From the NCBI GenBank assembly GCA_900617105.1, contig UYFQ01000254.1:1-63895 (forward strand): a stretch of DNA of 63,895 nucleotides, written 5' to 3'. This document shows positions 946-54,940 of the stretch, piece after piece (the first letter of the stretch is position 1; the number at the start of each line of letters is the position of its first letter). Source of the DNA: Hydrurus foetidus (Eukaryota). Below the pieces are notes generated by a model. The model saw nothing but the letters and a program-made list of their open reading frames with translations. It had not been told where the DNA came from and did not search any database. Both the position numbers and the translations under genes were made by a program.

Positions 946-1029
946 AGTCTAGCAGCAACAGATGTGTGAGAAGGATGTGTGGGAAGGAGTGTTGATCAAC
1001 GCACTAACACCATTACAACCTAACAACAT

Positions 1030-2497
1030 CATAACCAGTAGTATGTTTTTAAAAGATAAGTATACTGCAGAAGGTAAATTCGATAAGTGAAAATCGAGAT
1101 TAGTTGCAGGAGGTCATTTACAGGATAGAGATATTTACGATAATGGCTCATCACCTACAGTTAGTACCAGTAGTGTGTTCATAATTCCTTCAATTGCTGC
1201 GAAAGACAATTGATCATTAGCTACGATATATTTTCCAGGAGCATTTTTAAATAGCGATATGCCACTAGAAGGTAGTCACACTGTGTTTATGAGATTGAAT
1301 AAATATTTGACTGGAGTTTTGACATCCATAGATAAATCATATATGAAATATATTAATGATAAGGGTACATGGATTGTTAAATTCAAAAAAGCATTGTATG
1401 GATGTGTTGAATCTGCAAAATTGTGGTACGATAAAATTTCACATGACTTGTCTGTGTTAGGGTATACCGCTAATGCATATGACATGTGTGTATTTAATCG
1501 AACTGAAAATAACAAATCACAAACCACACTGATAATTCACGTTGATGATATGATGATATCATGTTGCAGTGACAGATATGTTGATATGGTGATTGATGAA
1601 ATTGAAATGCTATATCCCGGACTAACAAAACATCGAGGAAAAATACTTAATTATTTAGGTATGACTTTTAACTTCGAGACAGCGGGACAAGTGAAGATAA
1701 CTATGGAAGGATTTATCAAAGAGCTGCTAGAAGACTGCAAAGAGATTTTAGGGGTGGCACGGACACCGGCCAAACCGGATTTGTTTACAGTTAAACCGGA
1801 TACCTCTAACTCACTACTAACAACTTCTGCTCGTGAGTTCTTTCATTCCATTACAGAGAAGCTGCTATACTTAAGCAAGAGAGCGAGGCCGGATAATCTG
1901 ACGCCGGTAGCGTTCCTGACGAAGCGAGTGACTAAACGTCAAGTCGATGACTTAAAAAAGCTGGAACGTACCATACAGTACGTACGTCACACTAGAGACC
2001 TGGGCCTGACATTACAAGCAGAAGATCCCATCACTGTTACATGCTATGTTGATGCTTCCTACGGAGTACATCATGATATGAAGAGGCACACAGGAAGCGC
2101 CATCACATTAGGGAAAGGCGTAGTGTATGCTAAGAGTTCAACTCAAAAGCTAACCACGAAGTCAAGTACCGAAGCAGAGCTAGTAGGACTTAGCGACTCA
2201 GCCAACCAAGTGCTATGGACCAGACTATTCTTTATCAATCAAGGATATGAAAACAGGAGCGCCATCATATTTCAAGACAAGGAATCAACCATCCAACTGA
2301 TTAACAACGGTCGCTCCAACAGCGAACGCACGCGGCATATCGATATCCGGTATTTCTTCCTACATGACCGGATAAAAGAACAAGAAATCACCATCAGTTA
2401 CAAATCAACCGACGAGACGTTAGCAGACATGCTAACTAAACCCCTTCAAGGAGAGCAATTCAGAGCTTTCCGCAACCAACTACTCAACACCACCTGA
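1030..2497 (+). pseudogene. Ty1/Copia reverse transcriptase-RNase H, 5'-truncated and decayed
   Basis: KKALYGCVESAKLWY, IHVDD, YVDAS, KSSTEAE, RHIDIRYFF and ADMLTKPL motifs; upstream (K)SRLVAGG segment has in-frame TGA stops near 1088 and 1211. Confidence 0.92.
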
Positions 2498-2989: not shown

Positions 2990-3342
2990 TGTAGTAATAT
3001 CAGTATTATGTAGACTAGATATTCCGTATGCGAATTGTGATGCTATTATCTGTATTTCATATTTGAACCACACGTACGGTGTTGCACCACAGCAGTACCG
3101 TACTACATACGATATGAAGTATTTGAACCAGAATAGCCACCAACCTGTTGCAACAACTACCGACCACACTCGACTGCTACTGCGTTGCAGTAGTGCTAAT
3201 TAACCCAAACTCGTAGCCGTTCGTGAAACTTCTCTTCTGAGTCCAGACAGAACGAGTAAAGCCACATCGGAGAGTGCAGTGGGGAGCTTATGACCAACCG
3301 TATGGGACATACGTCACACCTTTGAGTCCACTATTCACAACA
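2990..3342 (+). repeat. Probable 3' LTR of the decayed Copia
   Basis: Preceded by TAGGGGTG, as is the 3' LTR at 54071; starts TGTAG and ends CAACA; no partner LTR in the window, so the right end is inferred. Confidence 0.55.
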
Positions 3343-4760: not shown

Positions 4761-5612
4761 ATGAGAACGGATTGGAAGATATGGCTGCGCTTGCCACTAA
4801 GTACAGTGTTAGCAAGTCAGCAATCCAAAGGTGTTCAAATTATCATGCAGAAAAAACATATCTGTAACGCTTTACTAACTCAGTGGTTATCATTTCACAG
4901 GCATGTTGCTGCCCGAAAGAAATTAGGGCCAATTAATGTTCCGTCACCAATAAATATATTTATGGGAAGAAGAAGATTAGTTAGTGATGCGATTATAACG
5001 AAGCTTAGGTTACAAAATCAAGCTGCCAACTTAGCAGGGGCAGCAGTATCTAGCCGTGTAATGACTAGTCAAATAGAAATAGAGAGAAGGTTAGAGTTAG
5101 GTCCTGGTGCAAATATAGATGCTTTGACTCCACCATATAGAACTATTGCATTGAGATATGTTGCAATGATAGCACGTGTAGCCATTCGAAATCCTGATAT
5201 ACAGAATCAACGACGTTTAGATGCTAAAAATGATATCTTTAATCAGATTTCTTTGGCCGCCGTTGTTTCTGCCATATTAGCTCCCGTCGAACCAGGAGTA
5301 AAATCCATCTACAAGCGGAGCAATATTCACTGTGTGGATGCTATGTCAATCCTGCTATTTAATCGTTTGAATGATACAGTTAGAGTAGGACCAACTGTTA
5401 GGAAGGAAATGAAGACTCAGTCAAGAAGTGTTAGCGTAACAAAGAATCAACCTCAGTGTCGTACTGTTAAATGTTATTTTGATACATCTGCAGATGGTTT
5501 ATTGAATGTTGTTATTATCTCAATTGCTGATAGGCTATTCATTGAGAAAAGGAAGTGGTTCCGTTTAGATAGCGGTAGTAATGATTATACAGTATGGGTA
5601 CTACTGATATAA
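4761..5612 (+). CDS. Hypothetical 283-aa ORF, no recognisable domain
   Basis: ORF length only; lies between TEs. Confidence 0.25.
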   Translation: MRTDWKIWLRLPLSTVLASQQSKGVQIIMQKKHICNALLTQWLSFHRHVAARKKLGPINVPSPINIFMGRRRLVSDAIITKLRLQNQAANLAGAAVSSRVMTSQIEIERRLELGPGANIDALTPPYRTIALRYVAMIARVAIRNPDIQNQRRLDAKNDIFNQISLAAVVSAILAPVEPGVKSIYKRSNIHCVDAMSILLFNRLNDTVRVGPTVRKEMKTQSRSVSVTKNQPQCRTVKCYFDTSADGLLNVVIISIADRLFIEKRKWFRLDSGSNDYTVWVLLI

Positions 5613-5924
5613 AAAAATACCAAAAATAAAAACTCGATATTAGGGAAAGAAAATAATCCATCGAATGCTAAGGTCAATCCATACGGTTGGACGAAATACG
5701 AAATACAAAATAGAAAAACACTGTAATCCTCCGGGTGATCGTTTGTTATGGTGGAGGATCCGAAATACAAAATGAAAACTTATGTTTTTCGTGATCCTCC
5801 GGGCGGTTGCTTGACAAAATTTGGCTCCAGATTCTCCGTGACAAAATGGCGTGACAGAATAGGAATTATTCACATTAAATTTAAGAAATCATCAGTTTTA
5901 AGCAATAACAATTAAGTTGCAGCT

Positions 5925-7475
5925 ATGGAAAAGTCACCAAAACTTCGGGACTGCATTGGTGAGGATGGGTATCCAGATTTGGAAAGTTATGTCATCTTTA
6001 AGAAGAGGCGCGATGAGCTATTAGAAGAAAACGAGGCTGCCGAACCAGTTCCACCAAAGAAAATGCCCTTTCGTAACAGAAATAACGAAGGATACAATCC
6101 TAATGACTGCTTTGAGTCAGATTGGTATCGCAGATACGTCAGATTCCCTGATCAACCACTAAATAAGAAGCATATGAACCTATTTAGAAGAAGATTTAGA
6201 ATGCCTCACACTGCATTCTTAGATCTAGTGAGGGAGGCTAGAGAAGATAAGTGGTTTCCTGATTATGAAAGACGTAACGCTCTTGGGGAGATGGGCATTT
6301 TACTGGAAATATTGATTTTGGGAGCACTACGTTACCTGGGAAGGGGCTGGACTTTCGATGACCTCTACGAGGCTACAAGCGTCTCTGAAGAAGTACATCG
6401 TCGATTCTTCAAAGTATTCGTTGTAGCATGCCGCAAACATCTCTATCCCAAGTGGGTGAAGAGGCCGGAAACCCCTGAGGAGATAGAAGACTTTATGTCT
6501 GAATATGCTGAGGCTGGTTTTGATGGGTGTATTGGGTCAGCGGATGTTACACATATCATATTGGAGAGGTGCCACTACAAGCTTAAGAATCAGAATTTAG
6601 GAGGGAAAAGTTCTCATACGACGCGTGCATTCCAAATCGTAGCCGATCATCGACGCCAGATTATCGCGTCAACAGTTGGATATCCCGGAAGATGGACTAT
6701 AGTGCGATTTGATGGATTTGTGACTGACATGCAGAATGGTACTTACTTGAATGATCATCAATTTACACTGAAAGATAGCGAGGGAAAAGATGTAAATTAT
6801 ACTGGGGCCTGGATCCTTGGGGATGGGGGATATTCAAATTGGTCCACACTTATATGTCCCTTCAAACATTCACAGTCGAAGAAAGAACAGCGTTGGTCCA
6901 AATGGGCCGAGTCTATGAGAAAAGACGTCGAATGCACCTTTGGAATACTAAAAGGTAATTGATAATAATTCATTAATATATTCGTTAATATGTTTAATAT
7001 ATAATTACTATATTCATAGGGAGATGGAGAATTTTAAAATCAGGAATCAGAGTTCATGGGATCGAAGCTGCTGATAACATTTGGTTTACTTGCTGTGCCC
7101 TACACAACATGTTACTGAATTTTGATGGATTAGACAAGAAGTGGAAAAAAGGTGTACCAAGTCAAATTAGGGTGGCATGCCGTAGGTGATGTTGAAACTT
7201 ATGCCCCTCTTATATTTCGTAGAGTTAGAGATGGATGTGATATCAGAGAACTTGATACTTCAAAGTTTGCCCGAGGCAATGATTTATGTAATAATCTTTC
7301 AGACAACCGAGAAGAAGAAATAAAAAACTTAAAAAAGAGTGGAGAAGAAAATACTTATAAAATATTAAGAATGAGAAATAAAGATTTTAGAGACAAATTA
7401 GTAACTAGTTTTCATAGGAGGTGGGCAGTTAAAGATATAGTATGGCCTTCAAGAACAGGCAAAATGAAAGAGTAA
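5925..7475 (+). pseudogene. PIF/Harbinger-type (Plant_tran/HARBI1-like) DDE transposase with one intron and a C-terminal frameshift
   Basis: FRRRFRM, GSADVTH, GDGGY, RKDVECTFGILKG|RWRIL, CCALHNML; GT-AG intron 6955-7019; frame break near 7160. Confidence 0.88.
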
Positions 7476-10146: not shown

Positions 10147-10362
10147 TGTGGTCTCACTAGGACTCTGGGCTGGAACGGAGGGCTGCTGGAACGCGGGCGA
10201 AGGAAAGGGGGTGATGGGGCTAGTGCTATGGATAGCAAAGTGGTTAGCTTACAGATAAACACAGCAGGTATCATGGCAATGAATCGTGTGGATCGGATCG
10301 TCCTCGATCCGATCCGAACGTACGCCTGTACCCGTACCGCCCGTACGGGTGTACGGGTCACA
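10147..10362 (-). repeat. 3' LTR of Gypsy B
   Basis: Direct repeat of 17359-17574; PPT adjacent. Confidence 0.96.
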
Positions 10363-10645
10363 GTGCCCCTCTCTATCTAAAGGGGTGTACTAACTATCAA
10401 AATTCACCATCAAAATACTAACTATGAATAGATTCTAACTATTGAAAAACTATTTCAGACTGAAACCGGAAGTTTCGTACTGAATAAACCTCCATAAAAC
10501 CCGTTGGGATTCAATGTAGGAGGAATCTTTATGATTTAGTGAATCAAAATGTTGTGTTTTGGTTTTGGTTTTGTTTTGTTTTTTTTTTATTATTATTTTT
10601 TTATTTATTTTTTATTTATTTATTTATTTATTTATATGATATCGG

Positions 10646-13600
10646 TTATCGGTAGTTCGCGATGAATTCGCGTGGTATTAAATGTTTAAGGTTCTTTTTT
10701 ATCAAAAATTCATGTACTTTTTGCGACTTGCGCATATGTGTCCACGGTTCCCAGGTGTTGTGTTCCTGAGTATAGTTGAGCCATTTCACATGAAATGTGA
10801 GTGTTTTGTAAGCTCGAATGTTACCTTTCATTTCTAAAATATCTTCGATGAAGAATTCTAGGTAGTCCCTACGAGCTATGTCGGTTGGGTCTACATGAGT
10901 TGGGTCGAATTGGAAAGGTTTTAATTGTGTCATGTGGTACACTTTTTCTTTATGTGTTATTAGATCGAGTAAAGTATACTCTGCGAAGTTGTGACTGACA
11001 ACTCGCATCGGACCACGCCACAGTGTGTGCATGCGTGTTTCTGGTGTTGTTCGCTGTTGCACAAGTACATATGTATCGACTCCAAATTGTGTGATGTTGG
11101 GTGATTGTTGTGCATTGTGGATGTCGTCTGATTCTTTGAGTAAACGTGCAGTGATTTGGATAAGTTCATCCTGCAACGTCAACATTGTATCTGTTGATTT
11201 CGATAGTGAATGGGATTCCAAATCGATTTCGTCTCGCGGGAGTAGGATATTGGCATCGAGGTCGATAGCGTTGCCATAGATGAGTTGTGCAGGTGATACT
11301 TTCATACGGTCGTTTACAGTTGAATTTAGTATTCTTTGTACGAATGGTAGTATTTCCGCGTAATTTTCCGTTGTTGCGCGTTCGTACGCGTATGCGGTGA
11401 TGTGACGATTTATTTCTTTGTTGATACGTTCGACGATAGCGTTTTCTTCTGAACAGTATGGTAATATTTTGTTGTGGGTTGTACCAACAATTTTCACGAA
11501 CTCATCGATAATGTGAGCGACGAAGTGTGGGCCATTATCTGATCGAAGTATAGATGGTGTGCCGTATCGGCCCACGTGTTCTATGAGTGCTTTGCACGCT
11601 GCTTTAGCTGTTGCATCAGGTGTAGCATAGAGTTCGACAAATCTCGAAAATGTGTCGATCATAACAAGGATGTATCCTTTATCTGGGAATGGTCCGATGA
11701 AGTCAATATTAAGACATTCCATTGGTTTGTATGTTGATGTCGTGTACCTATATGCATTGATGGGATATTTCATAGCCGACATCTTTTGGCAACAAGGACA
11801 ATTTTTAATGAATGTTTTTACTGCGTCACGCATTCCCAACCATATGTTATTTGATTTTTTTAAGTTACGCAGAGTGCGTTGAACACCACCGTGTCCGACT
11901 GTAGTGTTATGACACTTTGCAATTATGTTATATTGCTCTGTCGTCATCGGTTTGTGTGTCAGAATTGCAGCTATTATTCCTGAGGTAGCATTCTGTTTTT
12001 ACATAGGCGAGACATTGCATCGGCAATTTCGTTTTGTTTCCCAGGGATATATCCTATCGTATATTCTAATTCTTGCAGGGCCATACGCCATCTGATGACC
12101 ATTTCGTTCTTGTCTTTTTCAAGGAACGTAAGATTTTTGTGGTCTGTTAGAATAGTGAATTTACGATCTCGTAGCAGTGCGTCGAGATAAGTACAGCAGT
12201 AGTATAGCGCGAAGGCTTCTTTATGTATTACTGACCATTTCAGTTGAGTCTTGGTAAGAGACTTGCTTACGAGAGCGACAAGTTGTTTTTCCCCGTCGAC
12301 TTCTTGATAGAAATAGCCGCCTATACCGTAATCCGAAGCATCGGTCATTAGGGTTATGGGCGCTGTATCGTGTATAAAATATAATAAAGGACTCTGTGCA
12401 ATTAGATCTTTGATCTTTTGGAAAGAGTTCGCAGCGTCATCTGTCCAGATAAGCAATGATTGCTTTTTCGCTGCGTGATCGATCATTTTATGCAGTGGTG
12501 CAACCACGTTAGAGTGATTTGGTACATGATCCCGAAAATAGTTGGTGAGACCAAGAAACGATCTTAGTTCGGTCGTCTTTCTTGGCATAGGAAAGTCGGT
12601 CACACCTCTTATTTTTTTTAGAGCTCATAGTTATACCATCTTTAGATATTTGTTTACCAACATATTCAACTAATTTTACATTTAGTTTAAGCTTTGCAGC
12701 TTTTAGTGATATGTTTTTTTCTTCGAGACGTTGAAACAATATTTCTAAACGTTCGCAGAACTCCTCAAATCCATTACCATAAACGATTATATCGTCGAGG
12801 TATACTTCACAAATGTGATATATTAGTCCCAGAAGGACTATTGTGGCCATCATTTCTTGGAAATATGAGGGAGCTCTTTTGGGTCCGAATGGTAGTCGGG
12901 TAAAGTGGTAAATACCCATAAAGGTGATGAACGCGGTGTACACGCGTGTACTCAGAGTCAGTGGGGCTTGGTGATAACCTGCAGTGAGGTCGATTACACC
13001 GAATGTGTCTGCCTTTTGTGAACCTAATCTCGCTAACATTTGTCTAATATTAGGAATTGGCCAGCTTGCTGACTCTGTTGCATCGTTGAGGTGACGGTAG
13101 TCAATACAGAATCGGTATGAACCGTCTGGCTTAGACGCAAGTGTAACTTGTGAGTAGTATGATGCCTCTGATTTGACTATTATACCCTGTTCTAGCATAG
13201 TATCAACTTGTTTACGGATTTCAATTTGTTTCCGTATTGACGTTGGTCGGGGTGCTACACGATTCCTGAATACTTTCCATTCTGGATCCCGTACGGGTAG
13301 TCCAAACGGTGGAATACGTGCAGGTTCCGGCCCGAGTTTGTTGTTGAAAAGCTTAATGTGTTTGACACAGATTGCTCTTATTTTTACTATTTGGTCAGGG
13401 GTACCATCGATGTGTATTAAATCGATGAGGTACATTTTATCCTCTGTTGGATTGTCTTGGAAAGGAGCGAAGGTATCCTTCGACTTGTAGTCAATCTCTT
13501 CGGGTCCGAAGGGTTGAACCTCCGGGAGTTCTTCACGCTCCCGGAGTAGAGCAGCAACTAGACCACGCGTTTGAGCTGGTGCCTTGGATGAGGGAGTTGG

Positions 13601-16600
13601 AGTAGCTAATTCCGGACTCCTGTCGGTTGTTAAACCTAAATCACTGTGTCGGGGAGGTGACAACAAAACTGCTGCCTCGACCGTAGAGTGCACAGTGAAC
13701 TCATCTAAAACAAGTTGAGCCGCTGCCGCAGCTGAACCTGTGGGACACCCGCATGATGCAGTGCATGTCTTGCTTGTACAAGCACCTCGAGCCACCAGGT
13801 CGTCTTGCCATCGACTGTCTGCGTCTGAGGGTTTTATCCCCTCCTGGCTAGTTATAACCAGAGGTATGTTGTGTGTGTTTTTATTTTGTTGCGTTGTGTC
13901 AGTGTAGGTGACGACATGTTCAGGTTCTGCATATAGCAGCTGTACTGGAATAGTTGTAAGAACGTCCGTTCTCGACTTTTGTAATTGTTTTGACGTCGGA
14001 TGTGGAAGAAGTTCTGTTCCGATTTGATCTACATTTTGGAAGAATTCTGGAAGAATTTTTACCAGGTTGAGATCTTTGATTGTTTTTAATCCGAGGATTA
14101 AATCGACTTTGGAGTCTTCCGCAATTCGGACAGGAAGAGCGAAAGTGTATTTGAGAAAATCTTTTTTAAATGATACAACAATATCAAGCACATGTGTAGA
14201 TTCAATACATTGATTATTTAGACCGGAACACATCCATAAGGGAGTGTCCGTTGTGCGCAAGTGGGGTTCGCCTTGCAGGCCCCGAAGGACTCTACGGTTG
14301 ACTACGTCCCCAACTTGGCATCCGGTGTCGAGTTGTGCGAGAGCGGCCAAGTCGTTACTTGGGCTCGTATTTGTTGGAGGAGGAGGATTTCCCGGAGGTG
14401 TTGTTGTCGTCCCGGCGGTTGTCTTTGTCTTTCGCCGAGTCGCGCGACTCTTCCTTGCGGGAGTTGTCACGGTCGCGATCGTTAGCGCGGTGGTTGGGAC
14501 GGTAACCGGGGATCGGATCTGTGGTAGAGATATTGTTACTTGTAAGTAATCGTCTATGTTTTCAGGTAATATCGCTGATAGTAGTTGTGTCATGTTTGGA
14601 ATTTTCTGACTGTCGTCAGAATGCAATGTATGCGCGTCAGTCAATGACAACTTACTTTTGCCTTTGTATCCGAACTCTTGGCCGGTTTTGTTGTTGACGT
14701 TTCCGCGGCTACGGTTTGCGTCACGATCGGTGTTGCGGTCGTTGGCGTTGTTGTTGTTGCGTTCGTTATCGCGATCGTTGTTGGTACGATCCGACTTCGC
14801 ATTGTTGTTGTTGTTGTTGTTGTTTTTGTTATTGTTGTGTTTGTTTTTGTTGTTGTTGTTTTGGGGTTGTTTCTCTGGACCCTTCCGTGGGATAGATGTA
14901 TGTGGACGCTCCATGATTGATGGTAGTTTTCGTCATTACCCCGTTGAGGTAGACGTTTGGCACGAAGTGAGGGTGGCCGATTCGGCGGAAATCGGCTGAC
15001 TCCGGTGACTGTGACCACGTGGTGTGTGTGTTGTTACAGTGTGTGTTCATGAAGAGTGTACACGTGTAACGATTGTGGCCGACCACCCCACACGTGTGGC
15101 ATGTGTTGGTGGAGCGACTGAGGCCGTTGTGTTCGTAGTCTTGTGAACGTGAGAACATGCTTTTGTATTGGGACTGCGGCACGTACTCGTTGGGTGGTGT
15201 GTCGGCCTGTTCCCTTAGGGTGAGTTTTGTTTTGAAGTGGTATAACAATCCACCCATGTTTTGTGCGTCCTCAACTGTTCGGCGGGATTTCTGTAAACAG
15301 ATGTTGAGGCGCTGAATCATGTCGGGGATGTTATCCTTCTTTTTCCCTTTGATGTATTTTTTTGTTTGGGCCATGAAGTTGTCGGTGAATTTGTTGTTGA
15401 TGGGTAGCTTCTTGTAGAAGATTTTACACATGTCATCATGTGTTGTTGAGTCAATCAGAGAATATTCGCTGTAGTGTCCCAAGATGATGTCTCGGAACTG
15501 CGCGATTGAGGCGTCCTCGAGGGATTCGTCTTGCCAGCAAAATTCGAATTGGAAATTTTTTAAAGATAAATCCAATTCGAATGTTGTCAGCGTACGTTTG
15601 TTATCGTAGTAGATTTTTTTAAGATCTTCTGCGATTTCCTGAAGGGTGAGTGTCCCCGAGGGGAGTTCGGGCCAGGCTTTACACTCAGCTCTGGTGTAAC
15701 CGGTTTCCTTCATGTGTTTGACTAACCGATCTTGGATCGATAGTCTCGCCTCTTTCTCAATGACTTCGTCCCATTTGGATTTAAATCCCGGGCGATATGC
15801 CTGTTGGTAGAAAAGGCGTGCTGCCTTATCCATTCCACCAAACAGGGCTTTTCGGTCCAGGAAGAAAACCTCTCTCATATTAATGAGTGAGGTGGATATT
15901 TCTCGGGCTTCCTTTTGGGGGTCGCGGGACTCGAAGACGAGATCTGTGTCATCTTGTTTGCGTTTTCGAATAGGTTTTTCAGCTGTCGGTTTAGACGCGA
16001 CTGATGTTACCTTTGCTTTTGCTGATGATGTAGATGAGGATGATGATGATTTGTCTTGTTTGGTAGCCCTTGCGGGCTTCTTCTTCGCCAGAGGCTTGAT
16101 AGCCAATGGTTTAGATTTTTAGACTTGACGACAGGGAGTTCGACAGCGTCTGAGTTTGACTTGTCGTCGTCGTTGTCGTCTTCCTCGTTGTCGTCGTTGT
16201 CTTCATCATCATCCTCGCCGTTGTCGTCGGCGTCGTCATTGGTGACGTCGTCGTCGACGTCGTCAGTGTCGCTGTTGTCGTCATCGTCCTCGTCCTCCTC
16301 ATCATCGTCGTCGTCGTCGTCCTCCTCAGACGAGGAGTTGTCGTTCTTTTCCTCCTTCTCCTCTTGCGACTGTTTAACGTCTTGGTTGTTGTTGTCGTCA
16401 TCAAGAGGAGTTGGTGGGGTGACTCGACTGACTGATAGGGGCGTTGGTTTGTGTCGACGGATGCGACGAGGTCCCTCATTTCTTCCTCGTCAGCGCCAAC
16501 TTTGTCTGCCCATTCTTGCAGCTTAGCAATGCGTTCGCGTTCTGCGATGCGCATTTTATTTGCTTCGCGCTTGGTTATCTTGCCGCGAGCGGCTTCGTCT

Positions 16601-16806
16601 TGAAGACGTGTTGGGGTATCTCCGACTCGGATGGCTTCCTTAGCCAGAGCCGCAGTGGATTTTTCGACATTGCGGAGGCGTTCCCGCTCCGCTGCTGCGT
16701 GTTTTTGCCTCGCAGTTTGCGGAAGCTGGCGCTGGTCGGATGGGTTTGAACCCTCAGAGATAGCATCGCTAGAGCTCCGTTTGTTGGCATTTTTGCCTTT
16801 GGCCAT
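10646..16806 (-). pseudogene. Gypsy B gag-pol polyprotein, broken by about five frameshifts
   Basis: CHTCGVVGHNRYTC knuckle, AQLDTG protease, RFCIDYR/YLDD RT, TDASD RNase H, H-H-CPCC and DDE integrase, chromodomain FHVKWLNY..NTWEP. Confidence 0.93.
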
Positions 16807-17358
16807 CTTGAAAAGTCGTCGGCAGTTGGATCGATGGCGCTTCCTGTCTTGGTCAGCAACGGAACTCGGACGCTATGCTAAATGATCAGTAGGATGTGCT
16901 CCTTCGAAAGAACTGTTGGTGGTATGTTGGCGGCTGTAAAAAGTGAAGATTAGATTAAGATGCTTTCCCCCCGATTTCGGGAGAAAATTGATGGAAAGTT
17001 GAATCGGACGGTGGAGCTCGCAGGACACGAAGTTGGGCGCGACGTCTGTAGGCTTTCGTTTACGAACGAATTTGATGTTTTCACTTGCTTACAAGTTACT
17101 CGCTTGCGTTGTCCTTCAAGTTTTGAATGGAGCAACGATTTAAGTCGGAAAAAGTCGTCGAGACGAACTTTTTACTGGAAGCGTTTCAGAGGCTGTCGCT
17201 TTGACAGAGCCTTTGTAGTGTGTTTTTATGATGTTTTCACTTATAAAAGTTACTCGCTTGGTGCGGCACGCCTTTGAAAAGGACGCTGCCGACTTTTTTT
17301 GGATGTTTTTGGAAGCTGGTCTCGTAGAGAGATCCTAGCTGATTCCAAATACCGGTAT

Positions 17359-17574
17359 TGTGGTCTCACTAGGACTCTGGGCTGGAACGGAGGGCTGCTG
17401 GAACGCGGGCGAAGGAAAGGGGGTGATGGGGCTGGTGCTATGGATAGCAAAGTGGTTAGCTTACAGATAAACACAGCAGGTATCATGGCAATGAATCGTG
17501 TGGATCAGATCGTCCTCGATCCGATCCGAACGTACGCCTGTACCCGTACCGCCCGTACGGGTGTACGGGTCACA
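17359..17574 (-). repeat. 5' LTR of Gypsy B
   Basis: Direct repeat of 10147-10362; followed on the minus strand by ATACCGGTATTTGG. Confidence 0.96.
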
Positions 17575-45927: not shown

Positions 45928-46854
45928 ATGGCAGAACGAACGAAATGGACAGAAAGGAGCCGCGCGTGTTTTATCAAAGCCATGATCTCCGAGATAGATG
46001 CAGGAGTCTTCGTTGACTCTGGATTCAAGAAAGCATCGTGGCAGAAAATTGTTGCAGCCCTCAACGAAAACTACGAAAACAAAAGGGAGACATCCGAGCC
46101 CAAGTTTACGTATACGAAGCAACAGTGCCAATCTTATTACTCCAAAATCAAAAGTCAGTGGTCAGTCTACGATATGCTGATGAACAATAGTGGATTCGGT
46201 AGAGATCCTGACACAGGAGGCCCGACTGCCTGCGACTCTGTCTGGAACGCCGTCATCGCTGCTCACAAAGATGCAGTGAATTACAGGCACAAGGTACTCT
46301 CACTGTACGAGGAATGCACCTACATCTTTACTGGGAAAAGCGCAACGGGGAAGTATGCGATATCTTCGGTGTTCACGACACCTGACGTTCCTTTCAAAGC
46401 GGAGAAGAAAAGGAATCTCGAGGACAGCTGGACTGACGATGAGCCGCAGAACTCAATCGACATAGAGGTTGGAGGAACGCAATCGTCCCACAAGAGAAGC
46501 TCGACATTTGAAGATTGTGGAAGCTCCGTCGAAGACTCCGTCACAGCCGTCAAGAAACCGGTCAAACCTCTGCCATCAAAGAACGGGTACAAGAAAAACA
46601 GAGCGAGCCCCCAAGATGAAGTTTTAAAACTTCTGAATGTCATCGCTAAAAACCAGGACAAATTAGTGAGTCATCACACCGCGCCGAGTGATTTAGCACA
46701 GGCAATAGCTCTCTTCAAAGCTGAACACTCGGGTGGCCTGGATGCCGGCCAGAGATCCAAGTTCCAGAAGTACTTGAAGGAAAATTGCGGTATCTTTATC
46801 CTACAGGATGAGGAAGAAAGGAACGAAAGTATTAGAGAGTGCTTAGATGCTTAG
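45928..46854 (+). CDS. Myb/SANT-like DNA-binding protein of the Harbinger element
   Basis: MAERTKWT...SGFKKASW...YTKQQCQS...K.QW...NSGFGRDP...VW pattern; first ATG at 45928. Confidence 0.88.
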   Translation: MAERTKWTERSRACFIKAMISEIDAGVFVDSGFKKASWQKIVAALNENYENKRETSEPKFTYTKQQCQSYYSKIKSQWSVYDMLMNNSGFGRDPDTGGPTACDSVWNAVIAAHKDAVNYRHKVLSLYEECTYIFTGKSATGKYAISSVFTTPDVPFKAEKKRNLEDSWTDDEPQNSIDIEVGGTQSSHKRSSTFEDCGSSVEDSVTAVKKPVKPLPSKNGYKKNRASPQDEVLKLLNVIAKNQDKLVSHHTAPSDLAQAIALFKAEHSGGLDAGQRSKFQKYLKENCGIFILQDEEERNESIRECLDA

Positions 46855-46999
46855 TATTGTTAATACAGCTCACTTTTCTCTAATCTTAATAATCTCTTGA
46901 TCAAGAATACCACCATACTTTGACATTAAAAACAAGCTGTGAAATTGAGTTGATGTCGATACAGCGTAATCTGAATCTTTATTTACGTCACGACAAAAT

Positions 47000-48204
47000 T
47001 CACTCATCATCTTCATCTTCACCCTCAGATCCATATCCATTCTCTTGTATGTAAGCTACGTAGTCATTCCACATAGCAGTCGAAATTCCATCACGCCATT
47101 GCTTCAACTCATTGCCATTACCAAGAACTTCTGCTACCTCATCAACATCGTCCTCATCATCATTAGCATTATTGATTTCAACATCAGGTATATCAAATTC
47201 GTCATCGTACAGCTGGTGAGAACGAATAAAGTTATGCAACATCATAGCACAAAGCACAAGATCGCATTGGAAAGGAAATGCATAGGGGCTCATTTCAACT
47301 AAAATGGGGAATCTCTTTTTCACTACACCAAATATTCTTTCAATTACATTCCTTAATGAAGAATGTCTCAGATTATATAACTCTTTCGCATTCTGTGGCC
47401 TTCTATTACCTTCAGCCCACTCCCTTAAATGATACCGCACCCCCCTGTACGGAGTCAGGACTTTCCATGATAAGGCATATCCTGCATCACCCAAGTAGAA
47501 CTTCCCTGGCAGAATAGGTAAGCCCTTCATTCTGGCATCATCTAGGACTCTGCTGTCGTGGGCAGATCCTTCCCAACCAGCGAGAATATAGCTGAACAAC
47601 ATGTCAAAATTTGCAACCGCCAGAACATTCTGACTCATTGTATTTTTCCTGTTCCGAAAGGGTTTTCTCTCATCTGGCGGAACAACTGCGTGGATGTGAG
47701 TTCCATCTAAAGCACCGATACAATTATCGAAGTAAGGCGAGAACTTGCGTGAGTTCGATATTTTCGACTGGATAGGATCTAGTACTGTAGGTGGAACAAT
47801 CAGATAATGTTTGCACATTTTCATGACTGTGGCAACTTGGTGAACTACGAGTGAAATTGTAGAACCAGAATGTTGCCACCTTTCATTGACTGATCTATTT
47901 GTGTGACCCACAAGAACCAAAATAAAGATGAGAAGTTTCTCTCCAGTTGACATATACTTGGAATCCCTGAATCCTCCACGACTCTCCAAAAGTAACAGCA
48001 GTTCATCAAATGTGTTTCTGTCCATTCGCGTGACATTGTGGAATCGGACTGTACTTTGGGTCTCAAGAAGTTCCTGCACAGTTGTCCCGTCAATATTGAA
48101 TCATGCTGCGCTATTGGCTCTTTAGCTGCTCGTACGACATTGCTTTTCAGAATTAATGCCACTAGAGAAACGGTATCTACGCCAAGCAACCCAACTTCGT
48201 CCAT
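47000..48204 (-). CDS. Harbinger/HARBI1-like DDE transposase (frameshift near 48082)
   Basis: HDSILTGQ|VQELL, CIGALDGTHI, GWEGSAHDS, YLGDAGY, RNVIERIFG..K.RF, LHNF. Confidence 0.92.
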
Positions 48205-48548
48205 GCTCTTTGCTGTGCGATTGCTGAATAGCTACGTGCAAGTATGATGGATCGATATATGTGATGAGGTATTGCTGCTGCTGTTGATAGGAAGCAGTGA
48301 TTTGATTTGTGTACATCGTGTTCTGTAGTCCAATCCACTGTCTGAACCGATCCACTGTCTTTTTCTATTACAGTGGATCGATGAAGACAGCGGAATAAAA
48401 ATCGAAAGTTACCGAACGAGCTCTAAAGGTGGAACCACCATCCGGTTAATCCCCCAATTACCGTATAAGAAACAGAAGCAAGAACGTATGGAACGTACAG
48501 ACCGTCGAACGTTTCAACTTTTTATTACCGAACGGAACGAACGCTCTC

Positions 48549-48951
48549 TGTTGGGATATGCGTAGACTAGGAATCCCTTTGGGGATAATATCATGAACGA
48601 TATCCAGTCCGGATAGTTGTAGCTTAGGCATACGTTTTATGATTCCTTGTAGACCGGTTGATACTATACACCAACCCGCGGTCACATCAGGAATGAAATG
48701 TTGGAGTGATGAATCACACCAAGTAGCATACTAGCAGTTAGTATACAGCTGATGAAGTGGATGTTTTGACATGCTAACCACTTCTTATTAAAAGAGACTA
48801 TATGACATCACGTCATTATACCTACACTAGTTGACTTTTCTGCTGCTCTGGCTAGGCTTGCATTTCACAAGGTGTATTCTCAACGAATCACTAGCAACCT
48901 ACCAGTTCAGTACCGGGATCAGTTATCCCTAAAGGAACGGTTTTACCAAGA
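48549..48951 (+). repeat. Copia 5' LTR (TGTTGG...CCAAGA)
   Basis: Direct repeat of 54071-54473. Confidence 0.97.
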
Positions 48952-48978
48952 TAATAAGAAGCCTTTAAAGACTTTATC

Positions 48979-51900
48979 ATGAGTCAAAAAGGGTCCAAAG
49001 GTGGTGCGCCACCGAGGAAAGATGAGGGTGCAAATGGATCCCTTGAAAAGAGGATCATACCCGCAGGATTGGTTGAGATCAGCCATGATTGCCACAAGCA
49101 GTGGGATTCAATCATAGCTAAGCTGAAGGCGTACTGCAGGGACAACTATCAGGATCTAAAGTCAATCTGTCAGGATCCGATGAAAGTGACTGTTGCACCG
49201 GCTTACCGGAAGCACCTACCACCTATGGCCACTGAGGCAGAGCTGGAGGCGATCGTGGAAGCGAACGATCCATCAGGAAACAAAAACAAGATCTTCATGG
49301 GACTCCTCAGCGGGAGGAACAATCAATACCTCAAGTTGATGACCCAACAGAGGATCGACAAGGAGAACTGCTACACAGTCATTCGAGACATGTGCTCAGC
49401 ACAGCTCAACTCGCTACTCTCCGTCGACGCCGCTTTCATAGCCTGCGAAGAAGATGACCCACTCGAATTACTCAACATAATTAAGCGCCTTGTCACGGCA
49501 CGGCCAGATGGAAATGAAGAACTCGACCGTCAGAAAGCCCTCAGCGAGTGGTTTGGACTGAAAATGGAACATGGGGAGGTGATTCTGAATTATGGCCGGC
49601 GTGCTATCAAAACATTCGAAAGACTCACCACAACTGGAATACCAGTTGAAGAACAGCCAAAGCCAAAGCAGCAATCAATGCGCTTCATTGATGGGCTCGA
49701 TGGATCAGTTCCGGCATACCACGGTTACAAGATGTACCTGATCAATGCCAAACAGCAAACGGATCGAGACATATACCCTGCGACCCTCGTCGACGCAATC
49801 CTGCGAGCAACGAGATTTGAGACATCATTCATTGAGAATATCAATGCAACCCTCCCTCCGACAACGCCACATTCAGCATTCGGAGCTCAGCAGCAGACTG
49901 AAGATCGAGGAAAAAGGGTGGCAAGCAGTTGGGGAAGGGCAAGGGTCACAAAGACAAACCTTCCAGCAAAGACACCAAGGCCGAATCTGACAAAGACAAG
50001 CCAAAAACAAAGTTCGAAGGCGAGTGTTTCAACTGTGGCAAGTTTGGCCACCGAAAATCTGAGTGCCGGAGCAAGGCGAAAGACGAGCCGAAAAAGGTGC
50101 GATTTGAGAAAAATCCAGAGCCGGCAAACAAGGCGAGCAGTCACTCCTCATATTACACATCATTTGGCAACATGCATGATGAAGAGGATGAAGAAATGGA
50201 AGATGATGATCGAAGATGCAATGTCGCGTTGAAAGGATCTCCACCCGACGACGGTGACGGAATCAGTCTACAGGCCACCCGAACTTCAATCCAACCATCA
50301 TCGACCGAAGCGATTTTCGACACCGGTGCCACCGGCACAATCATCACAAGCGCTGATGTTCTCTCAGAGATTTGGACGTGTCGGCCAACTGTGTTTAAGG
50401 GCTTGCATGGATCCTTGACAGTGACAAAAGTCGGCAGACTTGGTGATATCGGCATCGTTCACTTCGATGATCGGGCGGCGCTCTCCATCATTTCAGCTTC
50501 GGATATCCTTTTGCAAGGACACAACTGGGAGTTCCAACGTGGAGGACATGTTGATCAAGATGCTTTCCTGGTGCACACAGCAAAACAAACCTATCGCTTT
50601 CAACATCGAGGTGGACTCTATGTTTGCGATCTTGCATCACGACCAGAGCCTCGACATGAGAGCTCCAACAAGTCGAGATTAGAGTCAGCCAACCCCGCCA
50701 TCGCTCTCAATAAGGCAGGAGGACCTTTTTTCTCAGCTCCTTTGCCAACAACAACGGCAAATGAGGCAGCGTACTCCAAGCGCGAGGTTGCTCGAAGCTT
50801 CGATGCCCGACGGCTACAAGCAAGCCTTGGATTCCCACCCGACGCCAAGATGATCTCTGCTTTGAACGCCGGAGCATTCCTCAACTGCGACATCCTTCCT
50901 GAAGATGTTAATCGAGCAACTGCGATCTGGGGTGCCAACATCGCTGCTCTGAAAGGGCGAACAGTTCGAGCCCGACCATTTCCAGCATTGCAAAGTCACC
51001 GTGATTTTAAAAGTCACCGTGATTTTAAAAGTCACCGTGATTCTGATGAGCAACACATGCATTGTGATGTCATGTTTGTCAATAAGCAACCATTCCTGGT
51101 TTCCATCACACATCCTCTTGGCATTGTCCTCGTTGCTTGCGTGGAGAATCTCACAGCGCCAATCCTGAGACAAAGCATCAGGAGGATGTTCGGCACCATC
51201 GGATCCCGCAGTATCAAGATCACCCGCTTCACCAGCGACAATGAACGAGGGATCGCGGCGCTTGCAGGAGACATGAATGCAATGGGTGTGGCCGTCTCTC
51301 TCGTCGGACCAGGTCAGCATGATCACATCGTGGAGCGGATGATCCGCCACCTGAAGGAGACCATTCGGGCCACCATACACAGCCTACCCTACCTAGTCGC
51401 TGACGCGATGATGAATCACTTGGTGCTGAGCTGCTCCAAGAAACTACTGTTGTTCCCTTCGTCCACACGAACGGACAAAATATCTCCCTTTGAGGCCTTC
51501 TTCGGGAGAAAGGCTGATACAAAGATGGACATCGGTCCACCTTTCGGCACCTACTGTCAGGTCACCAACCGCACCATGTCGAATGGCATGGACCAGCGCA
51601 CGATTGGATGCCTTTACCTGGAGCCGAAGATGAATGGCACAGGAACACATGCATTCCTTCGGTTGGACAATCGGGCGACCATCAATGCGAACCACTATGT
51701 GGTACTGCCGATCCCACCCATCGTTATCACTACCGTGAATGGGTGGGCGGCAAAGAACAAGCTGCATACCTCGATCGACCCGATCTTCACATTCCACGAC
51801 CGAGACATCACAAATGATGTCGACAATGATGCCGTCGGAAACATTACTCGTGCAGCACCACCGACAGCGGCACCAATCGGAGACCGCGGACCCATTCAGG

Positions 51901-53891
51901 ACCCATTTCCGCCGTCAATTCCCACCGCACCAATCGGTTTTGAATCCCCACCGACACAATCGCCAATGGAGATTCGGGGTGAGACTGATACGGTTCCAGA
52001 CACAGAAAACCTACATGAAACTTCTGGCGAAATATCGGAACCAACGGAGCCCGTTGAAGAGATTCCGGAGGAGAACGCTTTTGATAGTGCACCGGTGAAC
52101 GTACGTAAGTACACACCTCGACCCATAGAACCAAGGGAAAAGTCATCCAGACTGAAGAAACCAATCGACCGACTTAACTTAACAGCGGAAGAAGTATCAA
52201 CTCAAGCACAAGAAATCGACAATCCGCATGTTTGGTCGATGATGTCAGTTACTCGGGGACTGAAGCTCTTCCCGGAAAAGACTGCATTCGCCATCGAGTC
52301 AGAGGTCAAATCGCTCCTCGCAAAGGACACATTCTCAGGGGTGCACATGTCACAACTGACACAACCACAGCGAAACAAGATCCTGCGTTCGATCATGAAC
52401 GTCACGGAGAAGTTCCTACCCACACTAAACTCGGAGGGTAACCGAGAGATCGACAAGGTCAAGGCCAGGTTCTGTGTCGATGGGCGCGCGCAAGTGCGAA
52501 CCGACTACAAGCCCGATGAGATCGAATCACCCACTGCTTCCATGGCCGCAATATTCACCGTAGCGCAACTGGCGGCAGCGGAGAAACGGTTTGTTATGGT
52601 GGGTGATGTGGGGTCCGCGTACCTCAACGCGAAAATGCCGCTGGATAAACCGGATAAAATCCTGCACATGATGATAACTAAAGATGTGGCGGATGAAATC
52701 GTACGACAAGACAAGTCATTTGCTGCGTACCGAATGCACAATGGAAGCATTCTGGTACGTCTGAACAAGGCACTATATGGCTGTATCGAGTCTGCCAAAC
52801 TGTGGTATGAGGAAATAGCCGGAACCCTACGGTCCAACGGTTTCACGGCCAACCCGCGCGACCTTTGCGTCTTTAACAAGAGCATCAAAGGAAAGCAATT
52901 CACGATTGTTGTCTACGTCGACGACTTAAAGATGACGTGTGTTGACAAGGACGCTGTCCTCGCCATGGAACAGATCCTGCTAAAAGTTTACGGCCAATTC
53001 AGGACAACACAGGGGCCTATCGTATCGTACCTAGGCCTGACCTGGGACTACAGTGAAACAGGATACGTGAAAGTTTCACAAGCAGGGATGATCCAAGACA
53101 TTGTTGCTGCAAGAGAGAAGACTCACAAAGACCGCGGAACCAAACCCGCTGGAATTCCGCACTCACCAGGTGCTCCTCACCTGTTTGATCGAACCCCTGA
53201 CAGTGAGCTGTTGAGTGCCAAGGATGCAGAAATATATCACACCGACACCGCAACCATTGCATGGACATGCTCGCGTGCACATCCGAGCCTCACAACAGTG
53301 GTGGGCGAACTCTCAAAACGAGTGAAAGCACCATCCTACGAGGATGACAAGAAGCTCGACAGGGTCATCAGCTATGCGAAGTACGTACGTGACGTACCCC
53401 TACGACTCAAAGCTGACCTCCCACCAAGAGTCACGGTATCAATTGATGCTGCATTTGCGAATCGCGACAACATGAAATCAACCTCAGGAATGTGCGTCAC
53501 ATTAGGGGTGGGATTTTTCATCACGAGTTCCAAGGTCCAGAAGCTGAATTCCAAGTCGAGCACGGAGGCTGAGATCATCGCGGTGTCCGACGGGATGAAC
53601 ATCCCATTATGGCTCGCAGACTTCATCCGCCTTCAAGGATACGATCCACAACCAGTGCGATTGGAGCAGGATAACCAATCCTGTATCACACTACTCACGA
53701 AAGGTCGGTCTACCGCAGAGACCACCAGGTTCATCGAGATCCGGAAATTCTGGATCTCGGACTATATCAAGAACGGTGCAGTGGACATTGTCTATGTTCC
53801 CACGGCGGAAATGACTTCCGACTACTTTACAAAACCGTTGCAAGGTGCGATTTTCGACAAAATGTTCAAGAAAATAATGGGACAAAAGTAA
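48979..53891 (+). CDS. Copia gag-pol polyprotein with a single frame break near 49912
   Basis: CFNCGKFGHRKSEC knuckle, FDTGA protease, HCD/TSDNE/VER integrase, KARFCVDG/YVDD RT, IDA/SSTEAE/SDYFTKPL RNase H. Confidence 0.94.
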
Positions 53892-54070
53892 CATCTCTTT
53901 ATCTCACACTCAAAAAGTCACCGTGATTTTTGACTATATGGTTATGATGATAACTACGCAGAAACCTATATTAGTTATGATAATTACCACGTTTTAACAC
54001 CATGTGATGATAAATAATTTGCATGATACCTAAACAACCATGTGACTGAATGTCGATGACATTAGGGGTG

Positions 54071-54473
54071 TGTTGGGATATGCGTAGACTAGGAATCCCT
54101 TTGGGGATAATATCATGAACGATATCCAGTCCGGATAGTTGTAGCTTAGGCATACGTTTTATGATTCCTTGTAGACCGGTTGATACTATACACCAACCCG
54201 CGGTCACATCAGGAATGAAATGTTGGAGTGATGAATCACACCAAGTAGCATACTAGCAGTTAGTATACAGCTGATGAAGTGGATGTTTTGACATGCTAAC
54301 CACTTCTTATTAAAAGAGACTATATGACATCACGTCATTATACCTACACTAGTTGACTTTTCTGCTGCTCTGGCTAGGCTTGCATTTCACAAGGTGTATT
54401 CTCAACGAATCACTAGCAACCTACCAGTTCAGTACCGGGATCAGTTATCCCTAAAGGAACGGTTTTACCAAGA
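54071..54473 (+). repeat. Copia 3' LTR
   Basis: Direct repeat of 48549-48951; followed by TSD CTCTC. Confidence 0.97.
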
Positions 54474-54940
54474 CTCTCAGACCTCAGAGACAAAATAAGG
54501 ATGAGGGATGGCATCCGCTCGATTCAGCAACAGTTGAAATCCACCATTCAATATTTTTTGTTATTGAGACTACGGGGATTCAAGAAGAAACGCGTACGGC
54601 TTCGCACCGTACCTCTCAAGAGGACTATTGTCGGTTCGGCTGGTTAGGAACAGCCGAGAGAATTATGTGGGGGAAAGAACCGACGAAATGCAAGGTAAAT
54701 CCGATGAGCGGTGCACTGAAACTACTTCCACTTAGACGATGGGCTTCAACATACGCTTCAGATTTAATATACTCTTCAACTTTTCCCTTGTCGACGATCG
54801 GTTTCTAGAGGAAAAGTCTAAAGGCGAATGATTGCGATGTCTTACGAGAGATAGTTCTTGCCTTTTATCTATTTTTCCAATTCCTGTCTATTTATATTTC
54901 TTTTGACGACAATTGCCTGATAATTCCCAACCCCTGCTTA

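What the first reader, a model, noticed from the sequence alone, without database searches (positions are those of the whole stretch)
48780..48963. Copia element with no tRNA PBS but a Tf1-style self-priming duplex
Seen: the 5' LTR ends at 48951 and is followed by TAATAAGAAG (48952-48961), with no TGG or tRNA-like PBS; the gag ATG is only 27 nt later. These 10 nt are the exact reverse complement of CTTCTTATTA at 48781-48790 inside the LTR. That sequence sits in an initiator-like CCACTTC about 35 nt downstream of a TATA-like GTATACA. The 3' base of this 10-mer pairs with the first base after the LTR, the register needed to start minus-strand synthesis at the LTR edge. U5 also has AGGCTT (~48854) complementary to AAGCCT overlapping the end of this site. 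Established: S. pombe Tf1 primes by annealing the first 11 nt of its mRNA to the PBS followed by RNase H-dependent cleavage, and this is described for Gypsy-type Tf1/sushi elements, whereas Copia elements use tRNAs or tRNA halves. Inference: an independently evolved tRNA-independent self-priming Copia lineage, recently active given identical LTRs.
Basis: partly seen in the sequence, partly recalled or inferred. Interest (0 to 1): 0.92.

Follow-up and report, generated by a model that had tools for sequence, protein, structure and literature searches.

The report
Self-priming Copia retrotransposon in golden alga
A young Copia-type jumping gene, likely from a golden alga, has in place of the usual tRNA-binding site ten bases that pair exactly with the predicted start of its own RNA, and dozens of distant relatives keep this pairing with different letters, so the whole lineage likely starts copying itself from its own RNA end.

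Summary
Confirmed. The 10 nt after the 5' LTR (48952-61) are the exact complement of LTR 48781-90, just behind an initiator-type YCA; LTRs are identical (403 nt). In 58 related regions the longest inverted repeat sits at the LTR end in 39 (2.4 expected) and at a YCA in 40 (3.6 expected); sequences differ widely, none starts with TGG, and eight non-lineage Copia controls lack the arrangement. Best reading: Tf1-like self-priming by the RNA's own 5' end, shared by a lineage spanning a likely chrysophyte host and diatoms. Start site, cleavage and priming are inferred; no RNA data were obtained. Corrections: self-priming Copia is not unprecedented (predicted for plant TAR elements, Neumann 2019); the TATA and AGGCTT pairing are not conserved; this copy is frameshifted. 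Differences from Tf1: predicted primers of 9-19 nt and no conserved flanking 'pretzel' helices. New lead: C is enriched right after the paired run (21/43 vs 10.7), as if the primer's cap were copied. This scan noted the same mechanism before in diatom genomes (32 notes).

The parts
48544..48548 (.). 5-bp target site duplication, left copy (CTCTC)
48549..48951 (+). 5' LTR, 403 nt, TG...GA ends, identical to the 3' LTR
48778..48784 (+). Initiator-type motif CCACTTC (fits YCAYTYY); predicted transcription start at A48780 or C48781
   Evidence: sequence; lineage context T-2 32/42, C-1 39/42; motif definitions in PMC3599244 and PMC4686930; start site itself inferred
48781..48790 (+). Predicted self-primer (with A48780, 11 nt), exact complement of the primer binding site
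   Evidence: conserved letter for letter in L029 while the LTR-leader is 60% identical
48952..48961 (+). Primer binding site, directly after the LTR, no TGG; followed by C48962 (possible copy of the primer's cap)
48979..50232 (+). gag-start ORF; matches relatives' gag up to about 49915, then runs out of frame
49911..49915 (+). A5 run where this copy leaves the reading frame kept by near-identical family members (defect or homopolymer error)
   Evidence: P0123, P0127, P0129 read through
49902..53891 (+). Open frame with zinc knuckle, protease, integrase, RT (RVT_2) and RNase H in Copia order; RT and RNase H acidic residues present
   Evidence: domain order read from motifs in the translation
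54064..54070 (+). Polypurine-tract core AGGGGTG before the 3' LTR, conserved in the lineage
54071..54473 (+). 3' LTR
54474..54478 (.). target site duplication, right copy

Best explanation
The ten bases after the left LTR pair exactly with the ten bases that follow an initiator motif inside the LTR, and the element likely primes reverse transcription with this predicted 5' end of its own RNA instead of a tRNA. Inferred steps: transcription starts at A48780/C48781; the first 10-11 nt fold onto the primer binding site, closing a 160-nt R-U5 loop; the RNA is cut just 3' of the paired stretch, most likely by the element's own RNase H as in Tf1, giving a 3'-OH in register with the LTR edge; RT makes minus-strand strong-stop DNA; later plus-strand synthesis copies the capped primer back into the binding site, which would keep the two sequences strictly complementary as they drift. 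The trait belongs to a broad Copia lineage (RT motif ALYG[C/T]) in a likely chrysophyte host and in diatoms.
For: Unselected test: in 58 LTR-to-gag regions the longest perfect inverted repeat has its downstream arm at an ACA junction in 39 (2.4 expected) and its upstream arm at a YCA in 40 (3.6 expected). L001 has two LTR copies that diverge exactly where the paired stretch begins. 43 non-redundant families: 41 distinct 10-mers among 42, mean pairwise identity 0.40, all four Watson-Crick pair types in most columns; each site matches its own LTR (mean 13.5 nt) and not others' (4.55 nt; >=10 nt in 2 of 1806 cross pairs) ('own' values are partly by selection). No TGG in the first 5 nt in 43 of 43; primers 83% A/U. 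The duplex is in the predicted fold of 42 of 42 leaders; window leader z = -3.1. Later-examined loci L072, L083, L096, L159 also show it. Eight Copia junction regions outside the lineage show no such match near gag, and one has a canonical tRNA-Met-type site. With G-U and mismatches allowed, 36 of 55 best alignments are still pure Watson-Crick. RNase H acidic residues are kept. Precedent: Tf1 (PMC7175516), whose primer is copied into cDNA (PMC11042837).
Against: No RNA evidence for the start site, the cut or the primer. The two flanking helices that Tf1 needs are not conserved here: own 4.10 vs cross 4.10 nt and 4.52 vs 4.33 nt, so how the cut site is chosen is open. Predicted primer length varies 9-19 nt. 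Of the 60 regions, 12 were set aside before the family counts: 6 without a real 5' junction or false hits, 6 unclear (L055 pairs 15 nt with two G-U, L041 and L048 9-10 nt, L057 doubtful, L032 and L062 show nothing). The host tRNA set could not be searched (no genome held). Families are related, so counts overstate independence.
Confidence: 0.84

Rival explanations
1. Same primer sequence, different source: short capped start-site RNAs or a host nuclease supply the 10-19-nt primer, in trans or in cis, without a cut by the element's RNase H.
For: No conserved Tf1-type flanking helices; primer length varies between families; no conserved sequence across the predicted cut (next base T 23, C 9, A 9, G 2 of 43).
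Against: The cis duplex dominates the predicted fold in 42 of 42 leaders; RNase H active-site residues are conserved, though they are needed anyway; the one tested case, Tf1, uses RNase H.
Confidence: 0.08
2. The duplex is a regulatory RNA structure (translation, packaging, dimerisation) and priming uses some other primer.
For: The helix closes the whole 5' leader and ends 17-60 nt before the ATG in many families.
Against: It begins at, or one base before, the LTR edge in nearly all families, which only priming requires; it is almost free of G-U pairs while other predicted leader helices have 168 G-U among 1540 pairs; no alternative primer site is seen.
Confidence: 0.04
3. A host tRNA or tRNA fragment primes at this site; self-complementarity is secondary.
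For: Most Copia use tRNAs or halves (PMC6317226); host tRNAs could not be searched (none in the window).
Against: 41 different A/U-rich 10-mers in 42 families, none with TGG, each matching its own LTR; no Rfam match near its threshold in 48500-49050.
Confidence: 0.02
4. The 10-mer is the tail of a short LTR intron (branch-point-like TGCTAAC just upstream, AG just downstream) and a splicing product primes.
For: Sequence at 48772-48795 looks like branch point plus acceptor; the same 11-mer occurs in a Gypsy LTR of the window.
Against: The closest relative L029 keeps the primer but has lost CTAAC; CTRAY lies within 12 nt upstream in only 5 of 42 families, while YCA is near-universal.
Confidence: 0.015
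5. Chance complementarity.
For: A 10-nt inverted repeat somewhere in this region arose in 4 of 30 shuffles.
Against: Register-specific expectation 9e-4; lineage-wide conservation with changing letters.
Confidence: 0.005

Closest known systems
Tf1/Tf2 of Schizosaccharomyces pombe and the Tf1/sushi group (Ty3/Gypsy chromoviruses); self-priming shown experimentally for Tf1
   Same: Primer binding site directly after the 5' LTR is complementary to the predicted first bases of the RNA; 11-nt predicted primer in this family; no tRNA site.
   Different: Copia, not Gypsy; predicted primer 9-19 nt across families (15 in 18 of 42) rather than 11; the two flanking 'pretzel' helices are not conserved; nothing here is shown experimentally.
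Plant Ty1/Copia TAR lineage (Houba, Osr-1), self-priming predicted in Neumann et al. 2019 (PMC6317226)
   Same: Copia superfamily, 5-bp target duplication, >=10-nt complement of the post-LTR sequence inside the LTR (their criterion), which this element meets.
   Different: Stramenopile rather than land-plant hosts; RT is distant from typical Copia (RVT_2 only 64 bits; 20-26% identity to other Copia RT-RH). No TAR sequence was compared, so common or separate origin is not settled.
Diatom CoDi Copia lineages (CoDiI/CoDiII; Blackbeard, Surcouf; Maumus et al. 2009, PMC2806351)
   Same: Named diatom RTs (Chaetoceros, Nitzschia) nest among loci with the self-complementary site; some of these loci have an extra ORF before gag, as noted for CoDi.
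   Different: That paper's main text does not discuss priming ('tRNA' 0 occurrences); no named CoDi sequence could be compared, so identity with CoDi is likely but untested.
Fungal GalEa Copia with a Conserved Hairpin Site (PMC5445492)
   Same: Copia elements without a tRNA site.
   Different: There the hairpin lies downstream of the LTR and no LTR-internal complement was found; here the partner is at the predicted RNA start inside the LTR.

Membership tests
Ty1/Copia LTR retrotransposon | RVT_2-type RT with integrase before RT-RNase H | tested here: met
   RVT_2 E 1.6e-17 at pol residues 760-987; protease and integrase motifs upstream, read from translation and alignment; Pfam did not call the integrase
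Ty1/Copia LTR retrotransposon | Direct LTRs, target duplication, PPT | tested here: met
Ty1/Copia LTR retrotransposon | TG...CA termini | tested here: not met
   ends TG...GA; 39 of 42 families end in CA, 2 in GA, 1 in TA
Tf1-type self-primed elements (mechanism) | Post-LTR site complementary to an LTR-internal stretch, covarying | tested here: met
Tf1-type self-primed elements (mechanism) | The complementary stretch is the 5' end of the transcript | tested here: inconclusive
   initiator-type context only; no RNA reads obtained
Tf1-type self-primed elements (mechanism) | Two flanking helices ('pretzel', PMC10085805) | tested here: not met
   no excess over cross-family controls; a 6-bp helix 48962-67 with 48932-37 is possible in this copy only
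Tf1-type self-primed elements (mechanism) | RNase H-dependent cleavage releases the primer | not testable with these tools
   acidic residues conserved, which does not show the activity
Tf1/sushi group (clade) | Gypsy chromovirus with chromodomain integrase after RT | tested here: not met
   RVT_2, no Chromo hit in this element
Plant Copia TAR lineage | RT-RH-INT phylogeny within TAR | not tested
   no TAR sequence available; lineage is separated from 18 other Copia rows by a 0.54 branch, SH 99
Diatom CoDi lineages | RT clusters with named CoDi1-7 elements | tested here: inconclusive
   diatom-named RTs fall inside the lineage but none carries a CoDi name; the paper's supplement could not be read

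The most novel reading that the evidence does not exclude
An ancient stramenopile-wide Copia lineage (golden algae and diatoms, probably including CoDi elements such as Blackbeard) evolved self-priming separately from Tf1 and plant TAR, with a simpler design: one duplex of 9-19 nt and no pretzel, cut at the LTR junction; and RT copies the capped primer through its cap, leaving the C seen right after the binding site, so the binding site is rewritten from the RNA start at each cycle.
Probability: 0.3. Interest if true: 0.72.

Novelty: new variant of a known kind. Interest (0 to 1): 0.55.

Why it matters
Self-primed reverse transcription is proven only for Tf1-type Gypsy elements and predicted for one plant Copia lineage. 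A large aquatic Copia lineage that does it with variable primer length and without Tf1's flanking helices would show that cutting an RNA duplex to make a primer is a repeatable property of LTR-element RT/RNase H, bears on whether hairpin priming preceded tRNA priming (raised in PMC3601003), and would put these elements out of reach of tRNA-fragment silencing (inference). It is testable in a model diatom. It also matters for annotation: tools that require a tRNA site will miss or mis-score these elements.

Tried and rejected
No whole genome is held, so host tRNAs and other copies were not searched. No sequencing runs were obtained, so start site and splicing are untested. Scans with the close-clade alignment A1 found nothing in viral or metagenome contigs; the broad alignment A2 found nothing in viral contigs. 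Intron/branch-point idea rejected. Tf1-type flanking helices not found. The first IR search looked only 75 nt before the ATG and wrongly scored the diatom-like clade as negative; corrected. Of 12 linear contigs checked, 3 showed the junction pairing, 4 gave no match (junction mostly not on the contig) and 5 gave only matches away from a junction. The maximum-likelihood tree did not finish; FastTree was used, with L022 and three duplicates left out, and row P0425 there was mis-cut and is ignored. The window's Gypsy element has no self-complementary site. Rfam and ARAGORN gave nothing relevant. PMC1563812 is not held.

Full report
Observation. The element spans 48549-54473: LTRs of 403 nt, 100% identical, a CTCTC target duplication, termini TG...GA. 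The first 10 nt after the 5' LTR are the exact reverse complement of 48781-48790, starting at the first base after the LTR; the register-specific chance expectation is about 9e-4. The pol frame carries an RVT_2 domain. Relatives have one ORF of about 1630 aa; this copy leaves the frame at an A5 run (49911-15) that three near-identical family members read through, so it is either defective or mis-assembled there. The host is likely a chrysophyte: the best named hits of the neighbouring PEP carboxylase are Chromulina and 'ChrysophyteH2' at 70%, ahead of brown algae and diatoms at 59-62%.

Related loci. Many are collapsed elements in which LTR and primer site lie between pol and gag. A region up to the gag ATG could be cut for 59 of 106 loci plus the window; the others were fragments or were missed by my pattern. 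For each I took the longest perfect inverted repeat, with no prior on position. In 58 regions (two duplicates dropped, the window included) the downstream arm starts at an ACA junction in 39 (2.4 expected) and the upstream arm at a YCA in 40 (3.6 expected). In L001 two LTR copies diverge exactly where the site begins, fixing the register independently. LTR starts follow a conserved purine tract.

Covariation. Twelve regions were set aside (six with no real junction or a false hit; six unclear, of which L055 pairs 15 nt with two G-U, L041 and L048 9-10 nt, and L032, L057 and L062 gave nothing convincing) and five duplicates dropped, leaving 43 families. Their sites match their own LTR over 13.5 nt on average and other LTRs over 4.55 nt; own is strictly best in 41 of 43; 2 of 1806 cross pairs reach 10 nt. 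The 'own' figure is partly by selection; the cross figure and the sequence diversity (41 distinct 10-mers in 42, mean identity 0.40, three or four pair types in most columns) are not. None has TGG in its first five bases and the primers are 83% A/U. The closest relative with a junction, L029, keeps the primer and site letter for letter (11 pairs including A+1) while LTR and leader are 60% identical (250 of 419), and has lost the TATA-like, AGGCTT and CTAAC motifs. Loci examined later (L072, L083, L096; L159, with a bulge read by eye) also show the pairing. As a control, eight Copia junction regions from outside the lineage gave CA-anchored self-matches of 0-10 nt; the only 10-mer lies 2137 nt from the ATG in an element with a tRNA-Met-type site.

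Start site. The upstream arm begins at, or one base after, the A of a YCA: T at -2 in 32 and C at -1 in 39 of 42; YCAHW in 35 of 42, YCAYTYY in 13. These match initiators described for an oomycete (YCAYTYY; PMC3599244, passages) and a diatom (TCAHW; PMC4686930, passages). The window has CCACTTC, and an unrelated Gypsy LTR in the window shares GCTAACCACTT, which fits a host promoter motif. This is inference; no RNA reads were obtained.

Mechanism. Shown: sequence, register, covariation, lineage restriction. Predicted: the duplex forms (pair probability above 0.5 in 42 of 42 leaders; window z -3.1). Inferred by analogy with Tf1, where the first 11 bases pair with the site and RNase H cuts between bases 11 and 12 (PMC7175516, passages): a cut at the duplex end frees the primer. 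RT and RNase H acidic residues are conserved. Two departures from Tf1: predicted primers run 9-19 nt (15 in 18, 11 in 6 of 42), so a cut would be set by the junction rather than by distance from the cap; and the two flanking helices Tf1 needs (PMC10085805, passages) show no excess over controls. Pairing is unusually clean: with G-U and mismatches allowed, 36 of 55 best alignments are pure Watson-Crick, against 168 G-U in 1540 other predicted leader pairs, as expected if the site is re-copied from the primer, as Tf1's is into cDNA (PMC11042837, passages). The base right after the paired run is C in 21 of 43 (10.7 expected, nominal p 6e-4), 13 of 19 where pairing reaches +1, and 19 of 31 after collapsing close kin; the diatom-like clade has A instead. 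That RTs can copy a cap G as C is recalled, not from a call; this is a lead only, and the rows are not independent.

Lineage. In a FastTree tree the trait occurs throughout the ALYG[C/T] group, which is separated from 18 other Copia rows by a 0.54 branch (SH 99); Chaetoceros and Nitzschia RTs nest inside it among loci with the pairing (Atlas neighbours are mostly diatom). Long outgroup branches make the topology tentative, and no TAR or named CoDi sequence was included.

Known and new. Neumann et al. 2019 (PMC6317226; passages, abstract, methods section 20, part of the reference list and supplementary file 3 rows seen) predict self-priming for plant Copia TAR (89% of 203) and cite an earlier proposal for Houba and Osr-1 that I did not see. 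So a self-priming Copia is not categorically new. Ten full-text searches of the open library listed no paper reporting it for diatom or chrysophyte elements; subscription journals, Repbase and GyDB were not searchable, and the CoDi paper's supplement could not be read and may list primer sites. Its main text (passages and section 6) does not mention tRNA. Also seen as passages only: PMC5445492, PMC3601003, PMC5776459, PMC4600332, PMC12786077. This scan's earlier notes report the same arrangement in diatom genomes (32 notes, at least 6 genomes, read after my own tests); they are not independent evidence. A search of those notes for the cap-copy idea with a chrysophyte host returned none.

Verdict. 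Real feature; most likely self-priming (0.84); a new variant of a known kind. The additions here are the likely chrysophyte host within the same lineage as diatom elements, the lack of a pretzel, the variable primer length and the C-after-site lead. Interest 0.55.

Noticed in passing
window 10147-17574 (- strand): Chromodomain Gypsy element with 216-nt LTRs (99%) and a 4-bp duplication; its post-LTR sequence is a perfect 10-nt palindrome with no TGG at the edge and no complement in its LTR, so its primer is unexplained.
   Followed up: partly
window 48773-48783 and 10238/17450 (- strand): The Copia and the unrelated Gypsy LTR share GCTAACCACTT, possibly a host initiator motif.
   Followed up: partly
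window 956-2497 and LTR about 2990-3342: 3' half of a second Copia of the same lineage (35-46% identical), same PPT, LTR ending CAACA; its 5' end lies outside the window.
   Followed up: partly
window 48949-48951 / 54471-54473; L029, L033, L078: LTRs end in GA (or TA) instead of the CA that integrases normally need, yet the insertion has a clean 5-bp duplication.
   Followed up: no
window 50992-51042 and 53913-53930: An 18-nt unit repeated three times in the integrase region (KSHRDF) also occurs once in the 3' untranslated region; P0002 lacks the tandem.
   Followed up: no
L042, L044-L046, L050, L051, L058, L060: The diatom-like clade has a small extra ORF between the primer site and gag, and an invariant 15-nt predicted primer.
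   Followed up: no
L176, L177; G001, G005: Two 'plasmid' records of actinobacteria are Copia retrotransposon DNA, and one bacterial bin holds 67 Copia RT matches: eukaryotic contamination in public prokaryote collections.
   Followed up: partly
window 45928-48025 and 4761-6962: Harbinger-type transposon gene pair (Myb/SANT plus DDE_Tnp_4) directly left of the element, and another DDE_Tnp_4 gene earlier in the window.
   Followed up: no
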